A stretch of 64,000 nt of DNA from Candidatus Poribacteria bacterium (GTDB lineage Bacteria > Poribacteria > WGA-4E > PCPOR2b), in the NCBI GenBank assembly GCA_965198175.1, contig OZ240245.1, positions 3,163,030 to 3,227,029 on the forward strand, written 5' to 3'. A program made the translations under genes and the position numbers. Of this stretch, positions 11,888 to 63,947 are shown one piece after another (position 1 is the first letter of the stretch; each line of letters opens with the position of its first letter). Below the pieces are notes generated by a model. The model made no database searches and had not been told where the DNA came from. It saw only the letters and a program-made list of their open reading frames with translations.

Positions 11888-12082
11888 TCTCTTGCGCCCC
11901 TGTGCCTCAATAAAAAAGGGGTTCTAGCGAAAAGAATCTCGGTAAAAGTTCCGCAGTTGGACTCTATAAAGAACCGCTTTATCCACATCTTCACTCGCGG
12001 AATTTCGCCTAGTCTACCCCGACACTGACCCTACTTTTGTGGGATCAGGCATTAGTCAAACCACAATCTTGAGTTGAAGCAT

Positions 12083-12601
12083 CTATACTTTTGTTGTTTC
12101 ACCTTGTTGCAACAAATCTTCACGGCTCCGGGCGATTGGCGAAGGCTGGCTTTTCGATCTGTAAACATCAGCGGGATGGTTTCGAAGTATGAGTAAATCT
12201 GACTCGTCCTTTTCAATTCTATCGCCCTCAATTAAGTTAATCTCAATTTTTCGCATGCTCGTTGTTAGATTAACGACGACCTTGCATGGATCGTGGAGAG
12301 TAATATGCCACCCATCTGATGTTTTTTCTCGGGTGGATTTGGCTGGAACATTAATAGACTGCACTTGGTTTGTGCTGATAATAACAACACTTTCTGCCTC
12401 AACTGCCCCATTACCGTTTTGTACACCGTTTTCTTGAGCCATTGCTTTCCTCGCTAAAACTTCTGAATCGTCAATTGTTGGATACGTATCCGCACTGCCG
12501 CAAACACTTATCTTGCTAATTCTACTGGAGATTATTGTTCTTGTCAACCCTATTTTATTCTTTAAATCCGGCGGTAGAAGGCTGACGGGGTGAGAACCCA
12601 C
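12083..12601 (-). CDS. Hypothetical protein (172 aa)
   Basis: ORF only, no recognisable motif. Confidence 0.3.
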   Translation of the reverse strand: MGSHPVSLLPPDLKNKIGLTRTIISSRISKISVCGSADTYPTIDDSEVLARKAMAQENGVQNGNGAVEAESVVIISTNQVQSINVPAKSTREKTSDGWHITLHDPCKVVVNLTTSMRKIEINLIEGDRIEKDESDLLILRNHPADVYRSKSQPSPIARSREDLLQQGETTKV

Positions 12602-12690
12602 ATATCCAAGAAAGAACCGTTTAATTGGGGGGAAGATAACAATCGACTAGCTTGATTGACGGTGAGTATCGGGATGTATACTATCAAAAT

Positions 12691-13233
12691 CTACTGACTT
12701 TTCTCAGTGAAGTTGAGCGCAGCGGAATTAATGCAATAACGAAGCCCGGTCGGTGGCGGACCATCTTCAAAAATGTGACCGAGGTGCGCATCACATCGAC
12801 TGCAAAGCACTTCAGTACGGGTCATAAAGAAACTCTTATCGCTTTCAGTGCTAATCTTATCTGTCGAAATCGGCTGCCAGAAACTTGGCCAACCGGTTCC
12901 AGAGTTATACTTCGTTTCGGAACTAAAGAGTTCGCTGCCGCAACAGATGCACTGGTACACGCCTTTCCCCTTAAAATCGTGATATTCACCAGTGAACGCG
13001 CGTTCTGTTCCCTTCTTCCGTGTCACGTGATATTGCTCGGGCGTCAGCAACTGTCGCCACTCTTCCTCCGCTTTTTTGAATTTCTCAGACATCTTTACCT
13101 CTTTCTGTTCTTGTAATTCCGCGTTATTTCCCGATAGGGCTGCTTTCTCTTGCGCTTGCTTGCAGGCGAGATGGAAGCCGATTAACGAGAAGGAAATTAG
13201 CAGTAAGGTGGATTTCAATATTCTAACTATCAT
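12691..13233 (-). CDS. msrB: Peptide-methionine (R)-S-oxide reductase MsrB with an N-terminal export signal (secreted or lipoprotein form)
   Basis: YHVTRKKGTERAFTGEY, GVYQCICCG, RTEVLCSRCDAHLGHIFEDGP and RYCINSAAL are all MsrB/SelR hallmarks. GAGGAG ribosome-binding site 7 nt upstream of the internal ATG at 13233 (MIVRILK...). The hydrophobic leader ends in ...HLAC. Confidence 0.85.
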   Translation of the reverse strand: MIVRILKSTLLLISFSLIGFHLACKQAQEKAALSGNNAELQEQKEVKMSEKFKKAEEEWRQLLTPEQYHVTRKKGTERAFTGEYHDFKGKGVYQCICCGSELFSSETKYNSGTGWPSFWQPISTDKISTESDKSFFMTRTEVLCSRCDAHLGHIFEDGPPPTGLRYCINSAALNFTEKSQ

Positions 13234-13515
13234 TATGTGTCTCCTCGTACAACGACATTTAGTAAACACTTTATTATACCCCGAATCTGTAGTGAAAGTT
13301 GCATCATTACAAAGCTATATCGCAGCGAGATTATCGTGGATATTGTGGACGGATATGAATGTGAACCGCTGCGGACACGAGTGAACATCTCACAGGGCTA
13401 TAAGAATTCGCCCTGCACCGCAAAGCCTGGAATGGCATGAACCCCAAACGCCGGTTCAGCGGCGATTTGCATGTGGTGCTTTTTAATCGGCCCACAGGGA
13501 GATCGCCCGTACCGC

Positions 13516-48056: not shown

Positions 48057-48974
48057 TCAATTGAAATTACGGTCCCCATCCGATTCAACGTCAAAATCAT
48101 CGCCATTCTTTAAAAGCGCTCGAGTTCTGTCGTGGAACTCTCGATCATTATCATTTGAGATGTAATCACCGCATATTCTACGGAAGACAGCGTTCTCTAT
48201 AATGCTGTCAATGTAACCATAGTCAAGCTTGGTTCGCCGCTGAATTTCCGTTGGATCCACACCGTTTTTGTACATACCGAGTACCTCGTGCTCGACGCGT
48301 TGACGCAACATCCATTCTTTCAACTCATCTTCAGTGACGCCGGTCTCCGCAGTTATTTCATCGAAGCTTTTGCCTCGGCGCAGCATACCGTGCGCTTCGA
48401 CTTCGGCTGCTGTTTTGTTTATCACTTCTATTGCGTTTTCAATGATCTCAGATTCTGATTCTGGTGACTGCGATTCAACCAATTGCGCTTCCGCTACCGT
48501 GTCCTCGTCATGGTTGTCTTGCACGACTGCTGGGAGAGGCGGTTTGATGTTCTTGACGGCTTGATTCAGCGTTAGCAACGCTTTGGGAACGAGCGAGATT
48601 TGTTCTTTTGGGCTAAGGGATGAAATTGTAGATTCCAGATTGTCAAATGCGGCGTTCAACGCAGTCACAGACTTGGATTCGAGTTGCCGGAGGTGCTTTT
48701 CTCGTGCCGTAGCATAATTAGCCTGCATTAGCCTATATTGCTTAGCCCACTTTTCGGCGTTGTATCGGCTGTCGTTCGGGTTGACGGTGCAGATGGCTTC
48801 TTTCGCCAATCGACGGTCGGCTTTTGGATCGCCTGTAGATCGCTCCGGATATCGCTCGACAAGCGCGTCAGCGACTTCGGTTGTGCCATAGTCCTGCGCA
48901 AACATGGCGAGCCATTCAGCGAGTTCGGATTGAGTCTGGTGGTACGGGTTTTTGTAACTTCGTTTTTGTGTCAT
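48057..48974 (-). CDS. Hypothetical acidic protein (305 aa) with two HTH-like segments in the C-terminal third; divergent from dndC
   Basis: ORF only. Segments KSFDEITAETGVTEDELKEWM and VDPTEIQRRTKLDYGYIDSII look like helix-turn-helix motifs. Confidence 0.35.
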   Translation of the reverse strand: MTQKRSYKNPYHQTQSELAEWLAMFAQDYGTTEVADALVERYPERSTGDPKADRRLAKEAICTVNPNDSRYNAEKWAKQYRLMQANYATAREKHLRQLESKSVTALNAAFDNLESTISSLSPKEQISLVPKALLTLNQAVKNIKPPLPAVVQDNHDEDTVAEAQLVESQSPESESEIIENAIEVINKTAAEVEAHGMLRRGKSFDEITAETGVTEDELKEWMLRQRVEHEVLGMYKNGVDPTEIQRRTKLDYGYIDSIIENAVFRRICGDYISNDNDREFHDRTRALLKNGDDFDVESDGDRNFN

Positions 48975-49353
48975 TTTATCCTCTCTGGTGATTTAGATGG
49001 AACGTCTAGGTGATTTGTCCTTTCGACGGTTACAATAATCCTACGTTTTTCGTGTATATTATACCACATCTGAGCTGTATCATGCAGGCGTTTTATATCA
49101 ACTAATATTTAGGTATTTGAACACCGAAAGCCTCCTGGTTCAGCAGTTCATCGCCGGATAGCGTAACACCTCAATGAATCGGGTAACTAATACTTGTGCT
49201 GAGCGCATTAAAACTTTGAATGGAGATTTTCAAGCGCGTTTTGAAAAAAAAGGGGGTTGAAAGCCGTTTGAATGAATCTTTATTGAACTCGCTCTGATTT
49301 TTTGCTATACTTAAAACAACTTCAATACGAATCAACACCAAGGAGATTATCCA

Positions 49354-50775
49354 ATGGCTAAGGAGACCGATGAAAAAGCGTATTCCATTTTTAATAATCG
49401 TACCGTTGCAGACATTCATCAAGGAATCCAGGAGGTTTATCTCTCCGATTCACGTCCATGGGTAGTGGGCTATAGCGGCGGAAAGGACTCAACGACGGCG
49501 CTTCAACTGATATGGTATGCCCTCGAAGAACTTCCGCCTGAACAACGGCAAAAACCAGTTTACGTCATCACGTCCGACACGCTGGTGGAAACCCCTGTGA
49601 TTGTGGATTACATTACGAGCACCTTGGATCGAATTGAACAGGCTGCCCGAAAATCAGGGATGCCGTTTCAAACGCACATTGTCACACCGAAAACGGACGA
49701 GACGTTTTGGGTGAACCTCATCGGCAAGGGGTATGGGGCTCCGTACTCGAAATTTCGTTGGTGCACCGATCGGATGAAGATTCAGCCAGCGAATCGATTC
49801 ATACTTGAGAAAGTGGCTGACTATGGCGAAGTCGTTCTAATTCTCGGTGTTCGCAAAGGGGAGAGCACAACACGAGATCAGGTGTTGAGTTTGCATCAAA
49901 TCAAGGGGTCCCAACTTTCGCGCCATACGTCACTACCCAACGCTTTTGTGTACACGCCAATCGTCGACTTTGGTCTCAACGATGTGTGGATTTACCTGTT
50001 TCAAGTCCCCTCGCCATGGGAAAATGACAACAAGGAGTTATTTGCGCTGTATCGTAATGCAAACGCAGGGGAATGTCCGTTAGTCGTTGACGAGACGACG
50101 CCTTCTTGCGGCAATAGCCGATTCGGGTGCTGGACGTGTACCGTTGTCTCGAAAGACAGGTCAATGGAAGCGATGATTGACAACGGCGAGGATTGGATGA
50201 TGCCGTTACTCGAATTTCGGGACTTTCTCGCCTCAACGCAGGAACCGGAAAACAAGGCTAAAATTCGGGAACATCGCCGTCGTGGCGGATTTGTTAGTGA
50301 ACGAAATGGGCAGTTGGTTCGTGGACCCTATAAATTGGAGTTTTGTAAAGAACTGCTACGAAGACTTCTAGAAACACAACAGCAGGTTCGTCAGGAAGGT
50401 CCCGATCCAAACATTGAGTTAATCACTCCACCAGAGCTTGAAGAGATTCGTAGAATCTGGCGGACCGAGCGTCAAGATTGGGAGGATTGTGTACCACAGA
50501 TTTATCGAGAGGTTGTGGGCGAAAAACTCGACTGGATTGAGGATGACCTTGGGACATTCACAGCGTCCGATAAAGCGATTTTAGAAGAGCTATGTATCGA
50601 CTCGGAAATTCCTGTTACGCTCGTTGCGAAGTTACTCGACACGGAGAGGCAATTCTACGGAATGAGTCGTCGGGCGGCAATATATGACCGAATCAATGCG
50701 GTTTTTCACGAAGATTGGCGATCTGAAGGAACTGTGCTTGCCGACCTTGAAAAGGACGTGGAGAATATGAACTGA
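49354..50775 (+). CDS. dndC: DndC-like DNA-phosphorothioation PAPS-reductase-family sulfurtransferase
   Basis: YSGGKDST PP-loop, FRWCTDRMKIQP, LGVRKGESTTRD, Cys cluster CGNSRFGCWTCT. Stop overlaps the dndD start (ATGA). Confidence 0.75.
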   Translation: MAKETDEKAYSIFNNRTVADIHQGIQEVYLSDSRPWVVGYSGGKDSTTALQLIWYALEELPPEQRQKPVYVITSDTLVETPVIVDYITSTLDRIEQAARKSGMPFQTHIVTPKTDETFWVNLIGKGYGAPYSKFRWCTDRMKIQPANRFILEKVADYGEVVLILGVRKGESTTRDQVLSLHQIKGSQLSRHTSLPNAFVYTPIVDFGLNDVWIYLFQVPSPWENDNKELFALYRNANAGECPLVVDETTPSCGNSRFGCWTCTVVSKDRSMEAMIDNGEDWMMPLLEFRDFLASTQEPENKAKIREHRRRGGFVSERNGQLVRGPYKLEFCKELLRRLLETQQQVRQEGPDPNIELITPPELEEIRRIWRTERQDWEDCVPQIYREVVGEKLDWIEDDLGTFTASDKAILEELCIDSEIPVTLVAKLLDTERQFYGMSRRAAIYDRINAVFHEDWRSEGTVLADLEKDVENMN

Positions 50776-51008
50776 TGATCCTCCACCGACTCACACTCAA
50801 AGATTTTGGACTCTTTTCTGGGGAGCAGACGTTTTGTCTGACTCCGCGAATCAGATACAAGAAGCGGCGTCCTGTCATCCTCATTGGAGGCAAAAGCGGG
50901 ACAGGCAAGACAACTATACTTGAAGCTGTACGTCTCTGTTTGTACGGTCCCCGATCGTTGGGCAACCGTCAATGGGTAACCAATCCTATTCAACTGTCAC
51001 CTAATTAG
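50775..51008 (+). pseudogene. dndD: 5' stub (77 codons) of dndD (SMC-like ABC ATPase); homology ends after the Walker A region
   Basis: MILHRLTLKDFGLFSGEQTF...VILIGGKSGTGKTTILEAVRLCLYGPRSLGNR matches the DndD N-terminus, then diverges and stops 20 nt before the convergent HNH gene. Confidence 0.7.
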
Positions 51009-51028
51009 GATAGTTTTGTGTAATTAAG

Positions 51029-51946
51029 TCATTCTCGAAAAACATTTCCGCGATGCCACGCCATGGCGTCCTGCGCAGGATAAAACTTAGCTTGGTCAGG
51101 CAACTGTATTCTTTTTTTTCGGAGTTCGATGAGTACCCACTCTGACGCATGTTGGTCGTATAATTCCGGTGAAACCTTGACTCTATAAGTCTTGCTCAAC
51201 GAGATTAGTCCTCTGTCAAATGCCCAATGATGCAGCTTGCACAACGAAATCCCGTTCCGTACATCGTTATTTTGAAAGGCATGATACGGGATGATGTGGG
51301 CGGCATCGGTTGCGCTCTCTCCGTCTGTAGTGACGATACACAACTCGCAGACAGCACAAGTATAGTTGTACAGTTGCATGATTGCGCGACGGAAACCCGC
51401 TTGACGAATGCGAATTATCCTTTGGACTAGTGTCGCTGGTTGTTCCGCTACCAAAGGAAGTTTGGTCCTAGTGAATAGTGAATAGGTATATTTCCAAGTC
51501 TCCTGATTCTCCGCAATGAGATTTACCAATTCTTCCTCGAAGTCTGGAAAATAGGTTTGGATAAGCGTTTGGCGTAGCACCTCTCGACTGGCTGGATCGA
51601 CCAACAAAACAAAGAGTTCGTCATCAAGCGTCGAATGGGATACAAGTTTACGTAGACGAGATATGCTTGTGATCCGACGTGCGCTACTCAATTCCCTTTC
51701 ATACCCTGCGTTTGCATGGAGGTGCCAAAATCCAGTACTCTTTTTACCTTTTAAGTGAAAAAACGGCATAGCGATGTTAGGTTGCCGTTCGGTCACTATT
51801 GGCCAATACTTGAGGAAAGTTGCCGCTAATTCAGCACACAAGCGAATTTTGTTTTCGGAAAACTGTCCACTATCTATCAACTCTATGATCGACAAGAGAA
51901 GGACCTGCTGATGTGGTGCGGGACCATGCGCCATGTCTACATTCAA
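51029..51946 (-). CDS. HNH endonuclease-family protein (HNH_2-like) with an N-terminal domain of unknown function
   Basis: C-terminal CAVCEL...AAHIIPY...NGISLCKLHHWAFDRGLIS HNH motif. Confidence 0.65.
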   Translation of the reverse strand: MNVDMAHGPAPHQQVLLLSIIELIDSGQFSENKIRLCAELAATFLKYWPIVTERQPNIAMPFFHLKGKKSTGFWHLHANAGYERELSSARRITSISRLRKLVSHSTLDDELFVLLVDPASREVLRQTLIQTYFPDFEEELVNLIAENQETWKYTYSLFTRTKLPLVAEQPATLVQRIIRIRQAGFRRAIMQLYNYTCAVCELCIVTTDGESATDAAHIIPYHAFQNNDVRNGISLCKLHHWAFDRGLISLSKTYRVKVSPELYDQHASEWVLIELRKKRIQLPDQAKFYPAQDAMAWHRGNVFRE

Positions 51947-51976
51947 GTGACTGAATTTGTGGATATATTTTCTTAA

Positions 51977-53051
51977 GCTTAGGAGTTACGCAGTTGAGAG
52001 CAAATAGGTTATAATTTGAGCATGAATCCATCGAAATATAATGACATTGACTATATCAATTTCTTGGTTGGCACTCAGAAAAGTTACAGTTGTCTTGAGG
52101 CAGAAAAGGTTCAACCCCAAACTGATGACTCACCGGCTCATGATTCGATAACCAGACTTTTGCATCGAGATGAACCCGATACCGGCAAACTGTGGCACGA
52201 ATCAAAAAGTCAGGTGAAATTGAAATCAGGAATTCTAGTTATAGATGATTCGACCCTTAGATGAAGGATCGATCCTTCATCTGATAAACCTTATTCCCAA
52301 AAGATTGACCTAGTGACAAAACACTGGTCGGGGAAACACCATCGAGTTGTGCATGGCATTAACCTAATCACTTTGCTTTGGACGAATGGCGATAGACATA
52401 TTCCATGTGATTATCGAATCTATAACAAAGCCAAGGACGGCTTGACGAAAAATGACCATTTCCGTGCAATGCTGACGGAAGCGAAGAACCGTGGCTTTGT
52501 TCCCGAATGTCTTTGCTTTGATAGTTGGTATGCTAGCCTAGAGAATCTAAAAGCCGTCCGAGATTATGGTTGGAGATGGCTGACTCGTCTAGCTGCCAAC
52601 CGACGGGTCAGTAAAGATTATTCCGGTAATCGTCCTGTAAGTACAGTGCCGATTGAATCAACGGGTACGATTGTTCATCTTAAGGGTTATGGATTGATTT
52701 TGGTATTCAAGGTGGACACTCCAGAAGGTGACATTGAATATTGGGCAACGAACGACTTACACATGAACGAGTTAACACGTCTCAAATATACGGAATGGTC
52801 TTGGGCAATAGAAGAATATCATCGTGGCATTAAGCAATTCGTTGGCGTCGAACGGGCACAAGTGCGGTCGACTCGCACTCAAAGCAATCATATCGGTTTA
52901 GCGCTGAGAGCCTTTCTGAGAATTGAGCATTACTGTTATCATACCGGCACCAGTTGGTTTGAAGCAAAACTCTCAATTGTCAGAAAGGCTGTCCGTGATT
53001 ATTTGGTGCAGCCTCTTTTTACGCTTGAGTCAACTGCGTAACTCCTAAAGC
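51977..53051 (+). mobile_element. IS element (about 1.07 kb) with 17-bp perfect terminal inverted repeats TAGGAGTTACGCAGTTG. Its IS4/IS701-superfamily DDE transposase is interrupted by an in-frame TGA inside a 24-bp palindrome.
   Basis: Left inverted repeat at 51980-51996 and right inverted repeat (reverse complement) at 53031-53047. The transposase reads in a single frame from 52022 to 53041 except for TGA at 52262-52264. Confidence 0.7.
52259..52282. repeat. 24-bp perfect palindrome AGATGAAGGATC|GATCCTTCATCT lying in frame inside the transposase gene
   Basis: Exact reverse-complement symmetry. Removing it deletes 8 codons (R*RIDPSS) and leaves ...DDSTL-DKPYSQKIDLV... contiguous. Confidence 0.8.
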
Positions 53052-53655
53052 TATTGGTGGACATATTATCTTTATGAATCTCTGGTTATAAATCAAATAG
53101 TAGCACACCGATCGAATCGAGAAAGGGTAAACATGGCAAATTCTTTTCTAAACATAAACAAAAGAAAGGTGATTGACCAAGTGATGTCACAGACGGTGGA
53201 ATTCTCAGAACTTCATCGCTTTAACTTATCGCATTCATAAAGTAATTCGCTGGACAGGTGTTTTGGTTGCATTGTATCCTGCGAGATGAAGCTAGGTGAT
53301 TGTCAACGATTCATCTCGGCTTCCTCCAGTCGTGTGAGGTGACTAACCGCCTCACGGGACGTATTGATTGCCATAATTAGGACGTGAATCCCTGTGCCTG
53401 AGGCAACCCAGTTTCACTGTTCAGGAACTGGATTGTCGATTCTCTCACCTAGTCTTAACACTCCTAACCAAATTGAGTATCCCAATGAACCAGCGTCTGG
53501 ACAAAAGGGCGCAGGTGTTTTATTGCCTGCTTTTGTCGCTCAATCTAACAAAGGAGTGTTCACCAATGTTTATCGAATTTCCTCAGCCCGACAAGCTCAT
53601 CAACATTGACATCATCGACCGAATTGAAATCCAAACTGTTCGGTAGCGTGGAGAG

Positions 53656-53856
53656 ATGAATCACAAACTGTTGCTTTATCGCAATCATAGCTACTCGGTC
53701 GGCACTCCAAGCAGCAGCAAAAATTTCAATGGCGAAATCTGGCGATTCGTGCTGATGAAGCCACAAAACAAAGAGCAAATCTATGAGGTGTGGAATACTC
53801 TCATCGAAAACCTCGGCGAAGAAGTCGTTACCATCAATACCCCGCTTCTGGGGTAA
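53656..53856 (+). CDS. Small hypothetical ORF (66 aa) in a cassette-like cluster
   Basis: ORF with GGAGAG 3 nt before the ATG. Upstream mini-ORF at 53567 has a strong AAGGAG ribosome-binding site. Confidence 0.25.
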   Translation: MNHKLLLYRNHSYSVGTPSSSKNFNGEIWRFVLMKPQNKEQIYEVWNTLIENLGEEVVTINTPLLG

Positions 53857-53914
53857 AATCTAAGGGAGCGGCTCACGCCGTCCCCACTACTTTACAAGGA
53901 GATTTACAACGTCT

Positions 53915-54100
53915 ATGAAACTGATTATCGAGGAGCGACTCCAAGCTGTTGAAGTTGAAGTGAAGAACCTCAAAACTCACTTGGAAGCATTGCCACCCAC
54001 GCATGACGTTTCCGTTGATAATGTGCATGGTATAGTTACTGATATGGTTAATAGTATATTCGATCACGCACGAGCAATCGAACGCGGTCGTACTATATGA
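53915..54100 (+). CDS. Small hypothetical ORF (61 aa), preceded by a GC stem-loop and the CTACTTTACAAGGAGATT leader
   Basis: Leader motif at 53887-53904 and stem-loop at 53864-53885. Confidence 0.35.
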   Translation: MKLIIEERLQAVEVEVKNLKTHLEALPPTHDVSVDNVHGIVTDMVNSIFDHARAIERGRTI

Positions 54101-54174
54101 TATAACCCAGAAATGGATTAACATCTATGGACGGGGCGACTAGCTCCGCCCCCCTACTCTACAAGGAGATTGTT

Positions 54175-54417
54175 TTGATAGATACTACCACTCAGGAGGA
54201 ACTCAGATGTAAGAAGTTGATTATCGTTGGCAATAATGGCGAAGAAGTTATCTTGCGTGTTGCTACGGAGCCTGCCGTACGCGATTCACTTGATAACCAT
54301 GTGATAAGAGAGGCAATTACGCGCATTCGATTTGAAGACCACAATGGCAAAATTCAGGATATCGCATCCGTCCCTGAAGGTCAAGTCGAACTCGCATTAA
54401 GTAATCCTGTTAGCTAG
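54175..54417 (+). CDS. Small hypothetical ORF (about 80 aa from TTG 54175; ORF track gives ATG 54127), preceded by a GC stem-loop and the CTACTCTACAAGGAGATT leader
   Basis: Leader motif at 54154-54171 and stem-loop GGGGCG..CGCCCC at 54133-54152. Confidence 0.35.
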   Translation: MIDTTTQEELRCKKLIIVGNNGEEVILRVATEPAVRDSLDNHVIREAITRIRFEDHNGKIQDIASVPEGQVELALSNPVS

Positions 54418-54652
54418 ATAGGAACAGCATAAATTTGCCCATCAACTATCACAATTGACGATGGCGGTAAAGCCTTCAGCAAGTCATTATAATGGGACCC
54501 AAGTGTGCTAATTGGGTGTCCGATTGGCACACTACCTTCCTTCAACATGGGCGGCGTGTTTTTCACCAAATTACTTATAAATCGTTCTGAACCTATTTGT
54601 TTTTCGCTTTTAGTTTCCATAACTTTCACGTCACATCACACGGAGATATGTA

Positions 54653-54856
54653 ATGCTAACCAATTCTGACCTAATAAGCCAAATCGAAAGTAAGGTTATT
54701 ACATTAGAATCACTTCTTTCTGAGATTAGAGAAAACTTAGGCTGCCCTGAGTTTTTCAACAATCGAGAGGTACAATTAAAGTTGTTATTAGATAGCGTCC
54801 ATGTCAATCTTAATCAATGGTTCCGTGATAGAGATCGCCCACCCGTTTCGGATTAA
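54653..54856 (+). CDS. Small hypothetical ORF (67 aa)
   Basis: ORF with GGAG ribosome-binding site. Its 3' end overlaps the IS3 remnant. Confidence 0.25.
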   Translation: MLTNSDLISQIESKVITLESLLSEIRENLGCPEFFNNREVQLKLLLDSVHVNLNQWFRDRDRPPVSD

Positions 54857-55309
54857 CAATATGTTCTTGAGAGCGAAGCCATGCAGTCAACCGAGGCACC
54901 CCATAGAACGGCGTCTTAGTGTACTGTTCGTCTACTAGACGCATATAGAGTAAATTTTGTTGCGATTCTACTACAGGTCGGTAATAGAACGAAGACCTAG
55001 ACAACCCCAATAGTTGACATTGTCTCGACACCGACGGTGAACGACAGCCCGGTTCAACAAGTTGCCGCTTCGGTTCAACGGAGCCGTTGAGTTTTTTTTG
55101 AAGCCAGTCGAGCTCTACCTTCAACTGACCGATTTGGCGATAGAGTTCAGCGACTAGCTGTTCGTTGTCGGAATCTGCTTTTGAACGTCCGTTTGCAAAG
55201 AGTTGAGGTAATGCTTCAAGCACTTGCTTTTTCCATTGACTGACTTGATTCGGGTGGATTCCATATTCACTGGCAATGTGTTGAGCCCGTGAAATTCTTG
55301 GTTTGCCAT
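54810..55309 (-). mobile_element. IS3-family transposase remnant: OrfA with a 1-nt frameshift near the start, plus the first 60 codons of OrfB; DDE core absent
   Basis: KPRISRAQHIASEYGIHPNQVSQWKKQVLEALPQLF (OrfA HTH and leucine zipper) runs straight into LSVSRQCQLLGLSRSSFYYRP...YGVPRLTAWLRSQ (OrfB N-terminus). Confidence 0.65.
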
Positions 55310-55510
55310 GCTAACTTCCGGAAGTCCGTAGGTTGGGTTGAGAGTGTAAAATAAATGCCTAGCTAAGGCAAATGAGAGCGTCGCTAGTCACCGATGCTGT
55401 TGCCGCGCATAAAGATAGACCCAAACCCAACACCCAATCTACGTGTTAATCATCATGCGTGGGTATCACTACAGACTTGGGAGACCCAATTTGAATTGAA
55501 TCCCGAAGTC

Positions 55511-57109
55511 CTAGCGTAATGCTTCGTGTTTTTCATCAGCGTTAATCTGGAAGCGTTCTAACAGAAAATCGCGTACTCCTTGCAGTGAGGAGTTGGTTAA
55601 AATTCCATCCGGTATGATGACCGCTGCACTTCCAATGCCGGGCTTGAGGAAAGCCCAGATGCGCTCAATAAAAAGGATCTCAGTCCGTTGGTTCTTGCGA
55701 GGTTTGTTGTTCCCTGCTTTATTCATCTGATTGCCCAATTCATAATCCTCAAGATAGGGATGTTCAGATAACGACACTTTTGCGCCGAAAGGCGGGTTGG
55801 TCAAAATCAGGTCGATGGCGCCTTCTTTAAACTCATTGTTGCCGGTCCTTTCACGAATGCGGTCAAATTGTTGCAGTGCGTCCGCGCTGATGACGTTGGT
55901 GTGACCGTCGTCGTGGAGAATCATGTTCATTTTAGCGACACGAGCAATCTCTTCATTGACCTCAATTCCGAAAAGCATCGCTTTAGCGAAATCGTGCCAG
56001 TGCTTAAAACGGTCTACAGGATCGTCGTGATAATCGTTCGCCTCTTCACGCACATAGTCAAGCGCATGGAGTAGGAAACCACCAGAACCACAGGCTGGAT
56101 CTAGTACGCGTTCATGGTTTTGGGGCCGCATCATTTGGACCATGAAATCAATAATTTCCCGCGGGGTGAAATACTGACCGAAGTGGCCCTTGAAAAAGCC
56201 GTCCATAAACGTTTCAAATGCTACTCCTTTTGTATCAAGATCAGTCTTAGAGAGGTTAATGCTTTCGATATGGGAGACAATGGTGCGGAGCGTTGCGGCG
56301 TCAATCTTGATGGTATCAGTGAAAACATCAGGTTCTCTCCGCTGCTGCACCTCATAGATTGACCGGATGCGCTCCGCGAGTTTGCTACTCGGCTCGTGTG
56401 TTTTGATTTGGAATTCGTAAGGTTCTCCATTTCTACGGTTTGCCTGCTCATCGTTGATTTTGACAAAGATAATTTTACATAGTTCGCCGAAAGCCTCTGG
56501 GGGCGAGAGTTTGCCGCCTCCCCAAAGGGTCTGATGGCATTTCTTAATCGTAGAAATGAGCATTTCTTTGGAGACAGCCGAAATATCGTCTTGAGTTCCT
56601 TTCCGAAAACGGAATTCCTCTGGCTTGCCATACCGTCGCGGAAGGTCTGCAACGATATTTGCTTCACGTTCGAGAACCCCGTATCTCGGAGAGAAATCGA
56701 GAAATCGCCGTGTCTGACCTGCGACGACCCCAACAAAATTTGCGCGGAACTTTGCCCATGTTCCGTTGCCACAAGCTTGCTCAACTGCTTGATTAAATTC
56801 TGAATCGGTGATGTCATCCTGCTTGAACTCAATCACCGCGTAGGGCTGAGTCCGTTTGTCATCGTGAAAAATGACTAAATCGGCGGCGTCTCTTGGGGTG
56901 CGGTCAGGTACGGTTACTTCAACCCCAATACGGTTCGGTTCATAGCCGTAGCGGTAGACTAGTTCTGCCCAATATTCAGCTCTAACTTTCTCTTCAGGGT
57001 CAGCATATCGTTCTTTGTGGTCAATTGCAACATAGGTAATCTTTTCAGCTTTCCCCTCTCCTGAAAGGTAAGCATCTTCATTTTTTAGTGCATTTTCTAT
57101 GTAGGTCAT
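55511..57109 (-). CDS. N6-adenine DNA methyltransferase with an N-terminal HsdR_N-type PD-(D/E)xK domain (type I/IIG-like); no cognate S or R subunit nearby
   Basis: DLVIFHDD...AVIEFK nuclease-like motif, FxGxG motif-I (LDPACGSGGFLL), NPPF motif-IV (LTNPPFG). Confidence 0.75.
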   Translation of the reverse strand: MTYIENALKNEDAYLSGEGKAEKITYVAIDHKERYADPEEKVRAEYWAELVYRYGYEPNRIGVEVTVPDRTPRDAADLVIFHDDKRTQPYAVIEFKQDDITDSEFNQAVEQACGNGTWAKFRANFVGVVAGQTRRFLDFSPRYGVLEREANIVADLPRRYGKPEEFRFRKGTQDDISAVSKEMLISTIKKCHQTLWGGGKLSPPEAFGELCKIIFVKINDEQANRRNGEPYEFQIKTHEPSSKLAERIRSIYEVQQRREPDVFTDTIKIDAATLRTIVSHIESINLSKTDLDTKGVAFETFMDGFFKGHFGQYFTPREIIDFMVQMMRPQNHERVLDPACGSGGFLLHALDYVREEANDYHDDPVDRFKHWHDFAKAMLFGIEVNEEIARVAKMNMILHDDGHTNVISADALQQFDRIRERTGNNEFKEGAIDLILTNPPFGAKVSLSEHPYLEDYELGNQMNKAGNNKPRKNQRTEILFIERIWAFLKPGIGSAAVIIPDGILTNSSLQGVRDFLLERFQINADEKHEALR

Positions 57110-58094: not shown

Positions 58095-58664
58095 ATGTTT
58101 GCACGGTATTTGTTGTGCGTTCTTTGTTTGGGTACCCTGATCAGCTGCGGTGCTGATAGGGATATTGTTGTGGAAGATGAGATTTCTGCTGACGGGAGTG
58201 ATGTGCCCGATGCCGTCTCTCCAGACAGTTATTCTGGAGATATTCCTGTGGTTACGCTTGTCACAGAGGGGCTCTGGGATGAAGAGGGGAGTCTGCAGAT
58301 TCAATTCCATTTAGAGATTGACCGGTCCCTTGAACATAATCTTTCAATATGTTTTGAACGGGTGCATTTTTCTGTTTTTGGTCATGATAATTCCGACAGG
58401 GGGTTACTGGGTATTTTACAAGGAGAAACTGAGTCCTTGAGTTTTACTTCCTATGCTCTTGCTAATAAGACTGTGTTAACGATTTTACCGGCGTCTATGC
58501 GGAAGGAGGTTGTGTTACCCTATAGGGTTTATGTTGGTCGGGATAGAGATGCTGATGAGAAAGTTAGTTTTGCTGTTCCTGTGGGGCATCAATTTAAACC
58601 GTACAAAATTGGTGACCCAGGAGAAATCATTCTCCGTCGTGGGGACATTGACGGATTTAAATGA
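58095..58664 (+). CDS. Lipoprotein of unknown function (189 aa)
   Basis: Signal plus lipobox LGTLISC. The C-terminal VPVGHQFKPYKIGDP motif is repeated out of frame at 58675-58761. Confidence 0.5.
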   Translation: MFARYLLCVLCLGTLISCGADRDIVVEDEISADGSDVPDAVSPDSYSGDIPVVTLVTEGLWDEEGSLQIQFHLEIDRSLEHNLSICFERVHFSVFGHDNSDRGLLGILQGETESLSFTSYALANKTVLTILPASMRKEVVLPYRVYVGRDRDADEKVSFAVPVGHQFKPYKIGDPGEIILRRGDIDGFK

Positions 58665-58979: not shown

Positions 58980-59489
58980 TTGTGTGTCCTTTGTTTGGGC
59001 ACCCTGATCTGCGATGTTGAGAGTTATGTTATTGAGGAGGGTGAGATGCCGCTTGATACTGATGGAGAGGTTGTTGACGCCATTGTTTCGGATAACTATT
59101 CTGGAAATATTCCTGGTGTCATGGTTGTTGCCGGTGATATTTTGGATAAAGGAGGGGATTTACGGATTCCGTACTTCCTCAAAATTGACAGACCGCTCGC
59201 ACACAACCTTGTGGTGTGTGTTGAGGTTGTCTCGATGACCCCAGTCCCAGGGTTTGGTAATATCCGTTGCCGTTCTATGAGAGTGCTAAGGGGTATTCTT
59301 TGGGGTACAACTGAGTCCCTGCTGCATTACTGGTGGATCGGTGATGGTGGTCCTGTTAAACTTCCAATAACGGTGTTACCGGCAAGCACACGGACATCTG
59401 TTCTTGATGCATACTTGGAAAAGTTTGGTGGACCTTATTGGGTTGTTATTGGCAGTAGATACATGGAAAGCACCTTAGAGCCTGTTTGA
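58980..59489 (+). pseudogene. Paralog of the 58095 lipoprotein whose N-terminus is destroyed (TGA, TAG and a 1-nt indel in the signal-peptide region)
   Basis: Nucleotide alignment of 58964-59010 with 58095-58150. The proteins share SP(D/V)SYSG(D/N)IP...L(E/K)IDR(S/P)L(E/A)HNL. Confidence 0.5.
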
Positions 59490-59571
59490 AAAAGAAAAAA
59501 GTTGTCTGAACGGTTGATGTTTACGTTTACACATTGGAGCAGTTGATTCTGAACCAATGAAAGGAGTAAAC

Positions 59572-59930
59572 ATGAACCGTAAGCGTTATCCCAGTGATTT
59601 GACCGATGCACAATGGAAGAAACTGTCCCCGTTTCTGCCAACACCCCAATCATTGGGTAGACCTCTGGTGTGTGCTGATGCCGCCTATCGGGGAGAATTA
59701 GAAGACTGGTTATATCTTGCTCATTAGTATCAACTGCAGATTGCATCTACGCTAGGGCAGCAGGAGTTTAAAGTTGTCCGGTTACGATGGATTGTTGATC
59801 GCACATTTTCTTGGTTTGGTTTCGTCGATTGACTTTGGATTATGAACGCTATCCTAGGACTGCTGAGACTATGGTGTACATCGCTTCCATTTACTTGATG
59901 CGAAACCGTATCAAATGACTTTTCAAACAA
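59572..59930 (+). mobile_element. IS5-family transposase relic: N-terminal 30 codons joined to frameshifted C-terminal about 50 codons
   Basis: MNRKRYPSDLTDAQWKKLSPFLP (IS5 N-terminus) ... RWIVDRTFSWFG ... YERYPRTAETMVYIASIYLMRNRIK (IS5 C-terminus). AAGGAG ribosome-binding site. Confidence 0.55.
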
Positions 59931-59956
59931 GCTCTAAGAATCAGAGGGACTGAATC

Positions 59957-60600
59957 TTGGCGTCATGGAATGAGTTGTACGCTGATGAAAAATATCAAGA
60001 GTTAATCCCAGAGACCGCTGTCTATCGGTTTTGCAGCATCGTGGAAGGCGCATTTGACGAAAGACCGCTGAAGTTCTGGGACCTCGGCTGCGGTGCCGGT
60101 CGACACACCGCGGCGCTTTTCCGGCTCGGTCATGATGTCTATGCTACGGACGATGCACCACGCGCAATTGATTTGACAAGACAACGGTTGGCGGATGTGA
60201 CAGATTGGCCTTGGCGCCCTAGCTGTTTTCACGGCGTGGTCAGCTGGAATGTGTTACACCACAACAGACTTGCCGCCATTGACGAAGCTGTGGCTCACAT
60301 TTACCGGTCGCTGATTCCCGGTGGAATCTTGATGGTCACACAAAATTGGACAAAGCTGATTTAGCCGGACGAGGGGTAGAAATTGAACCAGGGACATTCA
60401 TCCACGATATCGGTGACGATAGCGGCGTTCCGCACCATTACTTCAACGAGGCTGGTATCCGGGATTTGTTTGCGGACTGGGAGTTCATGGTGCTATCGGA
60501 ACAGGTGATCGCTCACTTGGAGCGCCCCGATCGGTTTTGGGAGTATACGCCATTCCCATTCACACATTGGGAGATTGTCGCGAGGAAGTTCGCGGGCTAA
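59957..60600 (+). pseudogene. Class I SAM-dependent methyltransferase split by a single-nucleotide frameshift near 60346-60351
   Basis: Motif I DLGCGAGRHT and LIPGGILMV in the first frame. The C-terminal ...GTFIHDIG... continues in the +2 frame from 60346. Confidence 0.55.
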
Positions 60601-60970: not shown

Positions 60971-61651
60971 TTAGAGCAATTTTATTAACTCCGAAAGGGT
61001 GACGATTCTGGTACCAGCGTGCTCGCTGTATCTATTTCCTCGATCAATCAGAACCGCCTGAATCCCCGCCTGTTCCGCACCGTCAATGTCATTTTCAATT
61101 GAGTCACCGACCATCAATACGTCGGAGGCGGCAGCGTCAAGATCTCGCAAAACATACTCAAATGCTTTTCGGTTGGGCTTGGAGAAACCAATCTCCTCGC
61201 CAATATAGATTCTTTGAATATATCGGGACAATGCTAGAGCTGTGAATTTGGCTCTTTGACCATCGGACGGACCATTCGTAAGAATAGCGGCTTTGATGGC
61301 TTTCGCTTGTAGAACCTTCATCAGTGGTATTGTATCGCAAAATAGCTCCATTTTATGATTGGTTTCCTGCATGTAGATATGATTTAATTCAGAGGATATT
61401 TCGAGAGATGTTGCGTGGGCACCCTTCAAGACATCGGCAAACCGACGAATTCTATATTCCTCTCTGGCAATAGACCTATCGGCAAACTGGCGAAATAACA
61501 TAGGTTCTACGAGGTTGAAATGATCCCAAAATGGATCTATATCTATTCCAAGCGTTTTCAAGATTATGTTAATATGAGATTTTGCGTTTTCCTTGGCTTT
61601 CTGATAATCGCAAAGCGTATCATCTAAATCGAAAATTATGTGTTTAATCAT
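60971..61651 (-). CDS. HAD-superfamily hydrolase (copy 1)
   Basis: Motif I FDLDDTL at residues 7-13, motif III/IV ...VGDSIENDIDGA. Confidence 0.8.
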   Translation of the reverse strand: MIKHIIFDLDDTLCDYQKAKENAKSHINIILKTLGIDIDPFWDHFNLVEPMLFRQFADRSIAREEYRIRRFADVLKGAHATSLEISSELNHIYMQETNHKMELFCDTIPLMKVLQAKAIKAAILTNGPSDGQRAKFTALALSRYIQRIYIGEEIGFSKPNRKAFEYVLRDLDAAASDVLMVGDSIENDIDGAEQAGIQAVLIDRGNRYSEHAGTRIVTLSELIKLL

Positions 61652-63257: not shown

Positions 63258-63938
63258 TCATAGCAATTCGATTACCTCCGTAAGGGAGACGATTCTGGTA
63301 CGAGTGTAATCACTGTATCTATTTGCTCGATCAATCAGAACTGCCTGAATCCCCGCCTGTTCCGCTCCGTCAATGTCATTTTCGATTGAGTCACCCACCA
63401 TCAACACGTCGGAGGCGGCAGCGTTAAGATCTTGTGAAACGAGCTCAAATGCTTCTCGGTTAGGCTTGGAGAAACCAATCTCCTCGCTAATATAGATTCT
63501 TTGAATATACCGGGACAATCCAAGATTTTTGAATTTGGCTCTTTGACTATCGGACGGACCATTCGTTAGAATAACGGCTACGATGTTTTTCGCTCGTAAT
63601 ACTTTCATCAGTGGTATTGTATCCTCGAATAGCTCTATCTTGTGAGTGGTTTCCTGAATGTAAATATGATTTAATTCCGATGTTAGTTCGCGAAACTTCT
63701 CGTGGGAGCCTTGCAAGACATCGGCAAACCGGCGAATTCTATATTCGTCTCTGGTAATAGACCTGTCGGCAAACTGGCGGAATAACACAGGTGCTACTCG
63801 GTTGAAACGATTCCAAAATGCGTCTATGTCTATTGTAAGCGTTTTCAAGACCTCATTAATATGAGACTTTGCGTTTTCTTCGGCTTTCTGATAATCGTAA
63901 AGCGTATCATCCGCATCGAAAATTATGTGTTTAATCAT
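63258..63938 (-). CDS. HAD-superfamily hydrolase (copy 2; about 88% nucleotide identity to 60971-61651). An alternative in-frame ATG lies at 63947.
   Basis: MIKHIIFDADDTLYDY... aligns to copy 1 throughout. Confidence 0.8.
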   Translation of the reverse strand: MIKHIIFDADDTLYDYQKAEENAKSHINEVLKTLTIDIDAFWNRFNRVAPVLFRQFADRSITRDEYRIRRFADVLQGSHEKFRELTSELNHIYIQETTHKIELFEDTIPLMKVLRAKNIVAVILTNGPSDSQRAKFKNLGLSRYIQRIYISEEIGFSKPNREAFELVSQDLNAAASDVLMVGDSIENDIDGAEQAGIQAVLIDRANRYSDYTRTRIVSLTEVIELL

Positions 63939-63947
63939 AACGGTCAA

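What the first reader, a model, noticed from the sequence alone, without database searches (positions are those of the whole stretch)
48057..57109. Decayed defence/mobile island: dndC plus a dndD 5' stub, HNH endonuclease, IS with inverted repeats, IS3 relic, orphan HsdR_N-methyltransferase
dndC (PP-loop SGGKDST, Cys cluster) is translationally coupled (ATGA) to a gene whose first 64 residues match the DndD N-terminus including Walker A. Homology then stops and a stop codon follows at codon 77, 20 nt from a convergent HNH-endonuclease gene. No dndA, dndB or dndE is present. Downstream lie an IS about 30 bp from the HNH start, a small-ORF cluster, an IS3 OrfAB relic and a PD-(D/E)xK-fused N6-adenine methyltransferase with no S or R partner. 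Together this looks like a phosphorothioation module caught mid-dismantling, with replacement by an HNH nuclease. Whether the lone DndC still acts, for example with the HNH protein as a sulfur-related pair, is open.
Basis: partly seen in the sequence, partly recalled or inferred. Interest (0 to 1): 0.65.

Follow-up and report, generated by a model that had tools for sequence, protein, structure and literature searches.

The report
Dead phosphorothioation operon beside its killer nuclease
In this sponge-symbiont (Poribacteria) genome, a DNA-sulfur-modification operon has been cut down to dndC plus a 65-codon dndD stub, and it abuts a nuclease of the kind that cuts sulfur-modified DNA, which a transposon has itself split; the same writer-versus-reader exclusion recurs across Poribacteria.

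Summary
dndC (49354-50775) is intact. dndD survives as 65 homologous codons. A convergent HNH gene lies 20 nt from the stub's stop. An IS701 element, an IS3 relic and an HSDR_N-N6 methyltransferase are all present.

New points:
- The HNH protein is an SBD-HNH, the family of phosphorothioate (PT)-dependent type IV restriction enzymes (ScoMcrA, EcoWI, Hga relatives). It is an antagonist of dnd, not a neutral replacement.
- The IS701 sits inside the HNH gene at codons 5-6, with a 5-bp target duplication. Two metagenome contigs preserve the empty site.
- A related contig (L083) shows the likely earlier state: dndC-dndD facing two SBD-HNH genes. A deletion of about 3.2 kb then removed dndD codons 66-685 and one nuclease gene.
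- Across 56 Poribacteria dndC loci the two states exclude each other. None of 34 loci with intact dndE has an intact SBD-HNH gene within 10 kb, and all 22 loci with the nuclease lack dndE.
- The methyltransferase is truncated and has lost its S partner.

Best reading: a non-functional relic of a writer/reader conflict. The parts belong to known families. The population-wide pattern is new but was anticipated in the literature. A retained DndC function is not supported.

The parts
48057..48974 (-). Divergent upstream gene (305 aa) of unknown function. It belongs to a Poribacteria-specific family and is a conserved neighbour of dndC in the closest relatives.
   Evidence: No Pfam, NCBIfam, PADLOC or PHROG hit. 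It has 71 homologues, and every one that carries a name is from Poribacteria. It is syntenic in L001 and L083.
49354..50775 (+). dndC, an intact ORF of 473 aa (PP-loop ATP pyrophosphatase / sulfurtransferase of the Dnd system).
   Evidence: TIGR03183 573 bits (cut-off 290) and PADLOC DndC 672 bits. All 142 columns that are invariant among 59 DndC sequences are retained. It is 91% identical to L001 DndC.
50775..51008 (+). dndD 5' remnant. Codons 1-65 (50775-50969), including the Walker A motif, are homologous to DndD. They are followed by 12 unrelated codons and a stop.
   Evidence: DndD profiles match residues 1-65 only. Nucleotide homology to dndD in 13 relatives stops at 50969. Full-length DndD in L001 is 684 aa.
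50970..51028 (.). Deletion junction. These 59 nt are the native 3' flank of the HNH gene. About 3.2 kb is missing here relative to L083: dndD codons 66-685, an IS3 scrap and a second SBD-HNH gene.
   Evidence: Local alignment to the stretch just downstream of HNH1 in L083. The same junction is present in L081 and L082.
51029..51979 (-). SBD-HNH gene (PT-dependent type IV restriction endonuclease family), 3' portion covering codons 6-324. The longest ORF left is 305 aa and starts at a TTG at 51946.
   Evidence: NF045808 'phosphorothioated DNA-binding restriction endonuclease' 121.8 bits, below the 180 cut-off. PF13391 HNH_2. phmmer against PDB 8H0L (SBD of Hga) gives E = 4.4e-13 over residues 2-131. 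The predicted fold matches 8H0L with probability 1.00 and TM 0.65. Homologues carry PF26340 DNA-SBD_ScoMcrA.
51980..53047 (+). IS701-family insertion sequence (1068 bp) inserted into codons 5-6 of the HNH gene. The 5-bp target-site duplication AAGCT lies at 51975-51979 and 53048-53052. The transposase reading frame (52016-53041) is broken by an in-frame TGA at 52262-52264, inside a 24-nt palindrome.
   Evidence: Inverted repeats. NF049921 matches in two pieces, 57 and 294 bits. L081 and L082 run uninterrupted across the site. The sequence was read directly.
53053..53064 (-). The severed first four codons (MSTN) and native start of the SBD-HNH gene. A promoter-like site lies just upstream at 53065-53092.
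   Evidence: Removing the IS and one copy of the duplication restores MSTNSLRKYIHKFSH..., as in the 324-aa orthologue P0001. The promoter-like hit comes, where hits were not above the chance number.
53473..54856 (.). Cluster of six small ORFs (57-96 aa) of unknown function. 53048-54110 is 100% identical to JGI contig L081.
   Evidence: No Pfam or PHROG hits. Identity to L081.
54810..55223 (-). IS3-family relic: OrfA plus the start of OrfB, with no DDE/rve domain. In-frame homology continues upstream to about 55330.
   Evidence: NF033516 64.3 bits over profile positions 48-175 of 369 (cut-off 160), and PF13276 HTH_21. Frame translation.
55511..57109 (-). HSDR_N-fused N6-adenine DNA methyltransferase, truncated at the C-terminus and lacking a specificity partner.
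   Evidence: N6_Mtase matches profile positions 4-206 of 311, and PADLOC MTase_I matches 24-556 of 670. MAD2 scores 277 bits against a cut-off of 720. The L082 homologue is followed by a 185-aa gene and a 460-aa HsdS that the window lacks.
59957..60597 (+). Right edge of the variable island. Synteny with L083 resumes at 59935 with a Methyltransf_11 gene that is frameshifted here.
   Evidence: blastn. tblastn splits the match into residues 1-139 and 141-225 in two frames. Pfam hit.

Best explanation
The locus is the non-functional remnant of a conflict between a phosphorothioate (PT) 'writer' and a PT 'reader-killer'.

Shown:
- Poribacteria usually carry dndC-dndD-dndE followed by pbeC/pbeA restriction genes.
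- In about 40% of the sampled loci the dndE/pbe part is missing and an SBD-HNH gene lies downstream instead.
- In the window lineage a deletion of about 3.2 kb fused dndD codon 65 to the 3' flank of one SBD-HNH gene and removed a second copy.
- An IS701 then inserted at codons 5-6 of the surviving nuclease gene, cutting off its start codon and the first 15-19 residues of the SBD.
- An IS3-linked rearrangement truncated the neighbouring methyltransferase, and its S gene is gone.

Inferred from published biochemistry of ScoMcrA, EcoWI and Hga:
- SBD-HNH enzymes bind the PT sulfur and cut nearby, so an active dndCDE and an active SBD-HNH cannot coexist in one cell.
- Once PT writing is lost through loss of dndE, dndD and dndC are dispensable and free to decay.
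- In a PT-free cell the nuclease would restrict PT-marked phage or DNA coming from dnd-positive neighbours in the sponge.

The intact dndC is a young or recombination-refreshed relic.
For: Identity of the parts.

Order of events:
- L083 has dndC, a 685-aa dndD, then HNH2 and HNH1 convergent, with no dndE.
- The window, L081 and L082 share one junction.
- The 56 nt after the breakpoint align to the HNH1 3' flank in L083.
- The IS701 empty site is present in L081 and L082, and deleting the IS restores a 324-aa ORF.

Exclusion pattern:
- 34 loci with intact dndE have no intact SBD-HNH within 10 kb either side. L004 has only an upstream SBD fragment with a stop codon.
- All 22 loci with the nuclease lack dndE. 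Remnants of 23, 35, 51 and 73 codons survive in L035, L026, L002 and L036. Fisher p = 5e-16, not corrected for phylogeny.
- The two states are interleaved on the DndC tree, needing at least 15 changes by parsimony.

Decay after dndE loss:
- dndD is frameshifted in L026 and L037.
- dndD is reduced to stubs of about 13, 18, 24 and 65 codons at four different junctions (L043; L025; L023/L034; window/L081/L082).
- None of the 34 intact-type loci shows dndD damage (p < 0.001).
- dndC of the sister contig L082 has a 1-nt deletion at codon 36.

Literature:
- ScoMcrA together with dnd is lethal (PMC3009677).
- SBD homologues restrict dnd clusters (PMC6224610).
- PT-dependent nucleases are rarely near dnd, and co-located clusters were predicted to be mutated (PMC7461809).
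Against: - dndC shows no decay. All 142 family-invariant residues are kept, and dN/dS against relatives is 0.04-0.13.
- dndC/dndD dN/dS in nuclease-bearing loci is no higher than in intact loci.
- All four independent dndD deletions stop short of dndC.
- These signals are weakened by two facts. The 65-codon stub, which cannot be functional, shows the same low dN/dS of 0.08-0.10. The loci are recombination mosaics.
- The loci were also ascertained with DndC as the query.
- PT-dependence of this particular nuclease is inferred from homology. It scores below the NCBIfam cut-off.
- Only 64 kb of the genome is visible, so dndD or dndE elsewhere cannot be excluded.
- The order of events (nuclease arrival versus dndE loss) is not resolved.
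Confidence: 0.7

Rival explanations
1. The lone DndC is still functional. It might serve as a PP-loop/[4Fe-4S] sulfur or adenylation enzyme in another pathway, or work with DndD and DndE encoded elsewhere, and is kept by selection. The HNH neighbour would then be incidental or a partner.
For: The ORF is intact with a full-strength profile score. There are no substitutions at 142 invariant positions in this or any of the 21 nuclease-bearing loci in the alignment. dN/dS is 0.10 against L082 and 0.046 between L023 and L034, which share a dndD-less junction. Four independent deletions all spare dndC.
Against: The untranslatable-as-DndD stub has the same low dN/dS. Neutral junction DNA between L023 and L034 is less diverged than dndC synonymous sites (one search compared). 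Together these suggest that recombination and recent origin explain the signal. L082 dndC is frameshifted. No DndC activity without DndD and DndE is known (established knowledge of Dnd systems). The loci were found by searching with DndC, so decayed copies would have been missed. The genes are convergent and share no operon.
Confidence: 0.1
2. dndC-dndD plus SBD-HNH, sometimes with a DndB-family gene, is a functional DndE-independent PT system. The SBD would sense self-PT, following SspE/DndI-like logic. The window would then be a degraded example of a new system type.
For: 14 of 22 nuclease-bearing loci keep full-length dndC and dndD, with dN/dS like intact loci. In L041 the HNH gene lies co-directionally exactly where dndE normally sits. 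A DndB-family gene is in an operon with the nuclease in L023, L043 and L085. PT-sensing HNH effectors paired with dnd or ssp do exist (PMC11662687, PMC9646914).
Against: dndD is broken or deleted in 8 of 22 such loci against 0 of 34 intact-type loci. dndE remnants show loss, not replacement. The spacing, orientation and intervening genes between dndD and the nuclease vary widely and include SMODS-SLATT, Schlafen and IS elements. Three of four sampled SBD-HNH homologues have no dnd nearby. Characterised SBD-HNH enzymes cut PT-DNA rather than sparing it (PMC7461809, PMC6224610).
Confidence: 0.1
3. This is ordinary neutral turnover of a defence island. dnd decay and the presence of the nuclease are unrelated, and both simply occupy a recombination and insertion hot spot.
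For: The region has low GC, is rich in IS elements and varies between close relatives. Unrelated cassettes such as SMODS-SLATT, Schlafen and type I RM genes occupy the same place. Recombination mosaics are seen in both locus types. L084 has the nuclease in the same NUDIX/HAD/methyltransferase flank without any dnd gene.
Against: The two-way exclusion is perfect (0 of 34 and 22 of 22) and spread over at least 15 parsimony changes and at least 9 distinct breakpoints. No dndE-less locus lacks the nuclease.
Confidence: 0.1

Closest known systems
SBD-HNH PT-dependent type IV restriction endonucleases (ScoMcrA, SprMcrA, EcoWI) and the SBD of Hga (PDB 8H0L)
   Same: An N-terminal sulfur-binding domain followed by an HNH_2 nuclease of about 320 aa. 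The SBD gives E = 4.4e-13 to 8H0L, and the model's only significant fold match is 8H0L. The cavity residues H25/K26/L75/P76/H79 of Hga align with H/Q/M/P/H here (alignment read against PMC10602919). The CxxC...H...N...HH nuclease motif is intact.
   Different: It scores below the NCBIfam cut-off (121.8 against 180) and is only about 28-30% identical to Hga's SBD. Hga carries a PD-(D/E)XK nuclease, not an HNH. The copy in the window lacks its first 15-19 residues and its start because of the IS701. PT-dependent cleavage and sequence specificity are untested.
dndCDE(A)-pbeABCD and dndBCDE-dndFGH phosphorothioation defence systems
   Same: dndC and the dndD 5' end are orthologous to those of intact Poribacterial dndCDE-pbeC/pbeA loci. 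L001 shows 84-89% nucleotide identity and the same pstS-SDR flank.
   Different: Only dndC is complete. dndD is a 65-codon stub. dndE, pbe, dndB and a cysteine desulfurase are absent from the window. It cannot be called a Dnd system.
Outlier cases of PT-dependent nucleases next to dnd clusters noted by Lutz et al. 2020 (PMC7461809)
   Same: That paper found fewer than 3.6% of predicted PT-dependent nucleases near dnd genes. It proposed that in such cases the dnd cluster is mutated or the nuclease is inactive. Here both are true.
   Different: In Poribacteria the configuration is common (22 of 56 dndC loci) and recurrent, and it always comes with dndE loss. This had not been documented in the papers I could search.
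PT-sensing HNH effectors SspE and DndI
   Same: They are HNH nucleases linked to PT genes whose activity is modulated by PT (PMC9646914, PMC11662687).
   Different: SspE and DndI use a DUF262/ParB-like NTPase domain and a tyrosine patch, not an SBD, and they need a working PT writer. No such domain is present here and the writer is broken.

Membership tests
DndC (TIGR03183) | Whole-protein score above the curated cut-off | tested here: met
   573.2 bits against a cut-off of 290.4. PADLOC DndC scores 672 bits, far above BrxP (55) and SspD (38).
DndC (TIGR03183) | PP-loop SGGKDS motif and the conserved cysteine cluster | tested here: met
   SGGKDST and the CPLVVDETTPSCGNSRFGCWTC stretch are visible in the translation. 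All 142 family-invariant columns are retained. Fe-S binding itself is not testable here.
DndD (TIGR03185) | Full-length SMC-like ATPase of about 650-690 aa scoring above the cut-off | tested here: not met
   Only residues 1-65 match, at 66.8 bits against a cut-off of 245.85. Homology ends at 50969.
Dnd phosphorothioation system | dndC, dndD and dndE together (plus a cysteine desulfurase) | tested here: not met
   There is no dndE and no desulfurase in the 64-kb window, and dndD is truncated. The rest of the genome was not available.
SBD-HNH PT-dependent restriction endonuclease (NF045808; PF26340 + PF13391) | HNH_2 nuclease domain with catalytic residues | tested here: met
   PF13391 gives 1.5e-12 over residues 197-250. 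The invariant H217, N231, H239 and H240 and the CxxC motif are present.
SBD-HNH PT-dependent restriction endonuclease (NF045808; PF26340 + PF13391) | Sulfur-binding domain fold with a proline-centred hydrophobic cavity | tested here: met
   phmmer to 8H0L gives E = 4.4e-13. Foldseek to 8H0L gives E = 6e-6, probability 1.0 and TM 0.65, on a model whose SBD part has pLDDT 70-84. The motifs APH(Q/K) and MPFFHL are conserved. Orthologues carry PF26340.
SBD-HNH PT-dependent restriction endonuclease (NF045808; PF26340 + PF13391) | Curated NCBIfam cut-off | tested here: not met
   121.8 bits against a cut-off of 180.
SBD-HNH PT-dependent restriction endonuclease (NF045808; PF26340 + PF13391) | Complete, uninterrupted gene | tested here: not met
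   The IS701 at codons 5-6 removes the start codon. The longest remaining ORF lacks 19 residues relative to P0001.
SBD-HNH PT-dependent restriction endonuclease (NF045808; PF26340 + PF13391) | Cleavage dependent on Rp-phosphorothioate | not testable with these tools
   This needs enzyme assays or dnd-plasmid restriction assays.
IS701 family insertion sequence | IS701 transposase, terminal inverted repeats and a target-site duplication | tested here: met
   NF049921 293.6 bits (cut-off 250). 19-nt perfect inverted repeats. 5-bp AAGCT duplication and empty sites in L081 and L082. The transposase carries an in-frame stop, so the element is probably not autonomous.
IS3 family insertion sequence | OrfAB with a DDE (rve) domain and inverted repeats | tested here: not met
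   Only profile positions 48-175 of 369 match, at 64 bits against a cut-off of 160. There is no rve domain. It is a relic.
MADS MAD2 methyltransferase (NF047738) | Score above the curated cut-off | tested here: not met
   277 bits against a cut-off of 720. It is better described as an HSDR_N-fused type I-like M subunit (PADLOC MTase_I 380 bits).
Type I-like RM methyltransferase module | Complete N6_Mtase domain with a specificity (S) partner | tested here: not met
   The N6_Mtase profile is covered only to position 206 of 311. The HsdS and the 185-aa gene present in L082 are absent from the window.

The most novel reading that the evidence does not exclude
SBD-HNH cassettes and dndE-pbe cassettes are alternative, mutually exclusive 'alleles' of one Poribacterial defence locus. 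They are exchanged by homologous recombination through the shared dndC-dndD arm and kept polymorphic by phages that carry, or lack, PT. A stronger version holds that dndC-dndD plus SBD-HNH (with or without a DndB-family protein) is a working DndE-independent PT-sensing system. Either version would make sponge Poribacteria a natural test of the untested proposal that PT-dependent nucleases limit the spread of dnd.
Probability: 0.15. Interest if true: 0.75.

Novelty: new member of a known kind. Interest (0 to 1): 0.42.

Why it matters
On its own, the window holds a dead locus: a broken PT writer, an IS-split PT-dependent nuclease and a truncated methyltransferase.

Its value is as one point in a clear comparative series. 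In Poribacteria, no sampled dnd locus next to an SBD-HNH gene has kept dndE, and no intact dnd locus has an intact SBD-HNH gene within 10 kb. This holds across many independent events.

That is genomic, natural-population support for an idea that has rested on plasmid experiments: PT readers and PT writers are incompatible, and this incompatibility shapes the patchy distribution of dnd. PMC8569181 calls the idea untested, and PMC7461809 predicted mutated clusters in co-located cases.

The locus also gives a practical warning. An intact, high-scoring dndC is not evidence of a PT-modified genome.

Tried and rejected
- Exact-sequence look-up of the window's DndC found nothing on record.
- dN/dS as a test of post-loss selection on dndC and dndD was rejected as uninformative. 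The non-functional dndD stub shows the same low ratio, and the flanks are recombination mosaics in both locus types. One all-pairs run timed out.
- I tried to detect a trans-encoded dndE in complete nuclease-bearing genomes through the contig-length column of a DndE homologue search. Only 2 of 7 positive-control chromosomes appeared, so the absence is not evidence.
- Two metagenome scans for the deletion junction found nothing, not even the JGI contig L081 that contains it. That collection evidently does not hold such contigs.
- The Pfam scan did not report an SBD domain. The local copy seems to lack PF26340, because L083 HNH2, which carries it in the precomputed table, also gave no hit. I relied on PDB sequence and fold matches instead.
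- The AlphaFold model is of low confidence overall (pLDDT 54) and only the SBD part is usable.
- Genes between dndD and the nuclease in relatives were considered as possible DndE substitutes and rejected. They are SMODS+SLATT_4, Schlafen/AlbA_2, DUF3644 and unknowns, they vary between loci, and in L034 the SMODS-SLATT pair lies upstream of dndC.
- MAD2 membership for the methyltransferase was rejected on score.
- Small ORFs at 53.4-54.9 kb and the ORFs at 58-59.5 kb have no Pfam or PHROG hits.
- The IS701 has no other copy in the window or in the fetched loci.

Full report
**Source and setting**

The window comes from a Candidatus Poribacteria (sponge symbiont) chromosome. A DndC-keyed scan of one genome per species returned 54 Poribacteria loci. 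The closest, L001 (OZ245030.1), is 84-89% identical in DNA across pstS, an SDR gene, the 305-aa upstream gene and dndC.

**Check of the observation**

- dndC (49354-50775) is a bona fide DndC. It scores 573 bits on TIGR03183 (cut-off 290) and 672 bits on PADLOC DndC, against 55 bits for BrxP and 38 for SspD.
- The next ORF (50775-51008) shares one base with dndC's stop (TGATG). It matches DndD profiles only over residues 1-65, including Walker A.
- Nucleotide homology to dndD of thirteen relatives ends at exactly 50969.
- The stub's stop lies 20 nt from the stop of a convergent 305-aa HNH ORF (51029-51946).
- The IS701 element, the IS3 relic and the HSDR_N-N6_Mtase gene are all present.
- tblastn finds no dndE, pbeA/C, DndB-like or cysteine-desulfurase gene in the 64 kb.
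- GC content drops to 0.41-0.49 over 48-60 kb, against 0.51-0.54 in the adjoining 44-48 kb.

**What the HNH gene is**

It is not a generic HNH.
- NCBIfam's best hit is 'phosphorothioated DNA-binding restriction endonuclease' (NF045808, 121.8 bits, below the 180 cut-off).
- Its N-terminal 130 residues match the crystallised sulfur-binding domain of Hga (PDB 8H0L) at E = 4.4e-13.
- The only significant fold matches of a predicted model are the two chains of 8H0L (E = 6e-6, probability 1.0, TM 0.65). The model is usable only in the SBD part.
- Orthologues carry PF26340 (DNA-SBD_ScoMcrA) plus PF13391.
- The residues that form Hga's sulfur cavity (H25, K26, L75, P76, H79; PMC10602919) align with H, Q, M, P, H. 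The HNH catalytic residues are invariant in 37 homologues.
- This is therefore a member of the SBD-HNH family. Characterised members (ScoMcrA, EcoWI and others) cut PT-modified DNA and restrict dnd clusters (PMC3009677, PMC6224610, PMC7461809).

**The IS701 interrupts that gene**

- A JGI contig (L081) and an ENA contig (L082) run straight through the insertion point. Window 51979 joins 53048 with a 5-nt overlap.
- The element spans 51980-53047. It has perfect terminal inverted repeats and an AAGCT target duplication.
- Deleting it in silico restores MSTNSLRKYIHKFSHLNVDM..., the N-terminus of the 323-324-aa orthologues.
- The nuclease gene has therefore lost its start codon, its putative promoter and the first 15-19 residues, which aligns with the start of the Hga SBD construct.
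- The IS transposase is itself broken by an in-frame TGA within a 24-nt palindrome.

**History of the dndD deletion**

- L081 and L082 share the window's junction.
- L083 carries the closest HNH outside that group (74% identity). It has dndC, a full 685-aa dndD and then, 35 bp away and convergent, two SBD-HNH genes separated by an IS3 scrap. It has no dndE.
- The 56 nt after the window's breakpoint align to the stretch just downstream of the distal HNH gene in L083.
- The window lineage therefore lost about 3.2 kb: dndD codons 66-685 and the proximal nuclease gene. dndE had already gone.
- The junction is old enough to have diverged. The stub differs at 14-24% of positions among the three carriers, and L081 has a broken Walker A.
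- In L082, dndC has a 1-nt deletion at codon 36. A homopolymer error in that assembly cannot be excluded.

**The pattern across Poribacteria**

- Of the 54 genome loci, two are too short to score.
- 34 have dndC, dndD and dndE, many of them followed by pbeC and pbeA (PADLOC).
- 18 have an SBD-HNH gene within 10 kb downstream. Adding the window, L082, L083 and L085 gives 22.
- None of the 34 intact-type loci has an intact SBD-HNH gene within 10 kb either side. L004 has only an SBD fragment with a stop codon.
- None of the 22 nuclease-bearing loci has dndE. Four retain 5' remnants of 23-73 codons. Fisher p = 5e-16, uncorrected for phylogeny.
- The two states are interleaved on a DndC tree, with at least 15 parsimony changes. 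The breakpoints differ, so the events are many.
- dndD is frameshifted in L026 and L037. It is cut to stubs of about 13, 18, 24 and 65 codons at four separate junctions. None of the 34 intact-type loci shows such damage.
- Looking from the nuclease side, only one of four randomly chosen Poribacterial SBD-HNH homologues lies next to dndCD (L085). L084 has the nuclease in the same NUDIX/HAD/methyltransferase flank as the window but without dnd.

**Does the lone DndC still act?**

- For: the ORF is intact, it keeps all 142 invariant residues, and dN/dS against relatives is about 0.1. The dndD-less pair L023/L034 gives 0.046. dndC/dndD ratios are the same in nuclease-bearing and intact loci.
- Against: the 65-codon stub, which cannot be a working DndD, shows the same ratio of 0.08-0.10.
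- DNA downstream of dndD is often 95-100% identical between loci whose dndC differ by 12-20%, in both locus types.
- The window itself switches from 100% to about 80% identity with L081 inside the HNH gene.
- The low ratios therefore reflect divergence acquired while the genes were in working operons, shuffled by recombination. They do not show selection after the loss.
- With the L082 frameshift and the known dependence of PT writing on DndC, DndD and DndE, I consider a retained function unlikely (about 0.1) but not excluded.

**Rest of the island**

- The methyltransferase (55511-57109) covers only positions 4-206 of 311 of the N6_Mtase profile and 24-556 of 670 of its best PADLOC model. It fails the MAD2 cut-off.
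- Its homologue in L082 is followed by a 185-aa gene and a 460-aa HsdS. The window has an IS3 relic and unannotatable small ORFs instead.
- Synteny with L083 resumes at 59935 in a Methyltransf_11 gene that is frameshifted here.

**Mechanism**

- Shown: the identities of the parts, the deletion, the IS insertion and the exclusion pattern.
After dndE loss the remaining dnd genes decay. In a PT-free cell the nuclease would restrict PT-marked phage or DNA from dnd-positive neighbours.
- Unresolved: whether arrival of the nuclease caused dndE loss or followed it, and why the deletion end points avoid the middle of dndD and all of dndC. The latter is partly explained by ascertainment.

**Comparison with what is known, and novelty**

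- All parts belong to known families.
- Writer-reader incompatibility is established experimentally. Lutz et al. predicted that the rare nuclease genes found next to dnd would sit beside mutated clusters (PMC7461809).
- What I did not find in the searchable literature is the extent and regularity of this in Poribacteria.
- I rate the locus a new member of a known kind. The window itself is of modest interest. The comparative pattern is of greater interest.

Noticed in passing
window 52259-52282 (stop codon at 52262-52264): The IS701 transposase is a single reading frame broken only by an in-frame TGA. The stop lies within a perfect 24-nt palindrome, AGATGAAGGATCGATCCTTCATCT, which looks like an 8-codon palindromic insertion.
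   Followed up: no
window 50734-51290 compared with 51300-54110 (IS excluded); locus L081: The window is 100% identical to JGI contig L081 to the right of about 51300, but only about 80% identical to the left. A recombination breakpoint therefore lies inside the HNH gene. The C-terminal 75 residues of the window's nuclease are about 60-67% identical to every sampled homologue.
   Followed up: partly
window 59957-60597: The Methyltransf_11 gene at the right edge of the island is frameshifted near 60340 and lacks 11 residues relative to the 225-aa L083 orthologue.
   Followed up: partly
window 60971-61651 and 63258-63947: Two HAD-hydrolase paralogues both match a single gene in L083 at 77-81% nucleotide identity. 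This is a local duplication.
   Followed up: no
window 58095-58664 and 58980-59489: Two paralogous ORFs with cysteine-rich, signal-peptide-like N-termini have no Pfam or PHROG hit. The surrounding kilobase has the lowest GC (0.41) and the strongest GC skew (+0.25) in the window.
   Followed up: no
window 59477-59935: An IS4/IS5-type transposase fragment (weak DUF4096 match) is 90-91% identical to two pieces in L007.
   Followed up: no
window 48057-48974: The 305-aa gene divergent from dndC belongs to a family that appears restricted to Poribacteria (71 homologues, no domain hit). It is syntenic with dndC in L001 and L083. Its function is unknown.
   Followed up: partly
L023 12484-13773; L043 13769-15028; L085 6681-7940: A DndB-family (PF14072) gene lies directly upstream of the SBD-HNH gene and in the same direction in three related loci. 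L085 also has a GIY-YIG protein there. This may be a two- or three-gene reader module.
   Followed up: partly
L014 13488-14952 (also L016, L021, L036, L037; upstream of dndC in L034): A SMODS (PF18144) plus SLATT_4 (PF18186) gene pair occupies the gap between dndD and the nuclease gene in several loci. This shows that the site is a general defence-cassette hot spot.
   Followed up: yes
L045/L053, L030/L033, L022/L027 (about 2-10 kb downstream of dndC): In both intact-type and nuclease-type locus pairs, DNA downstream of dndD is 95-100% identical while dndC itself is only 81-88% identical. Either dndC/dndD are unusually diverse or the flanks are swept by recombination.
   Followed up: partly
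L004 8743-9240: An SBD-only fragment of the nuclease gene, with an internal stop, lies just upstream of an intact dndCDE-pbeCA cluster.
   Followed up: partly
L061 (Anaerolineae MAG) 12028-13278: The same arrangement occurs outside Poribacteria: dndC-dndD, a dndE truncated at codon 88, then a convergent SBD-HNH homologue at 37% identity.
   Followed up: no
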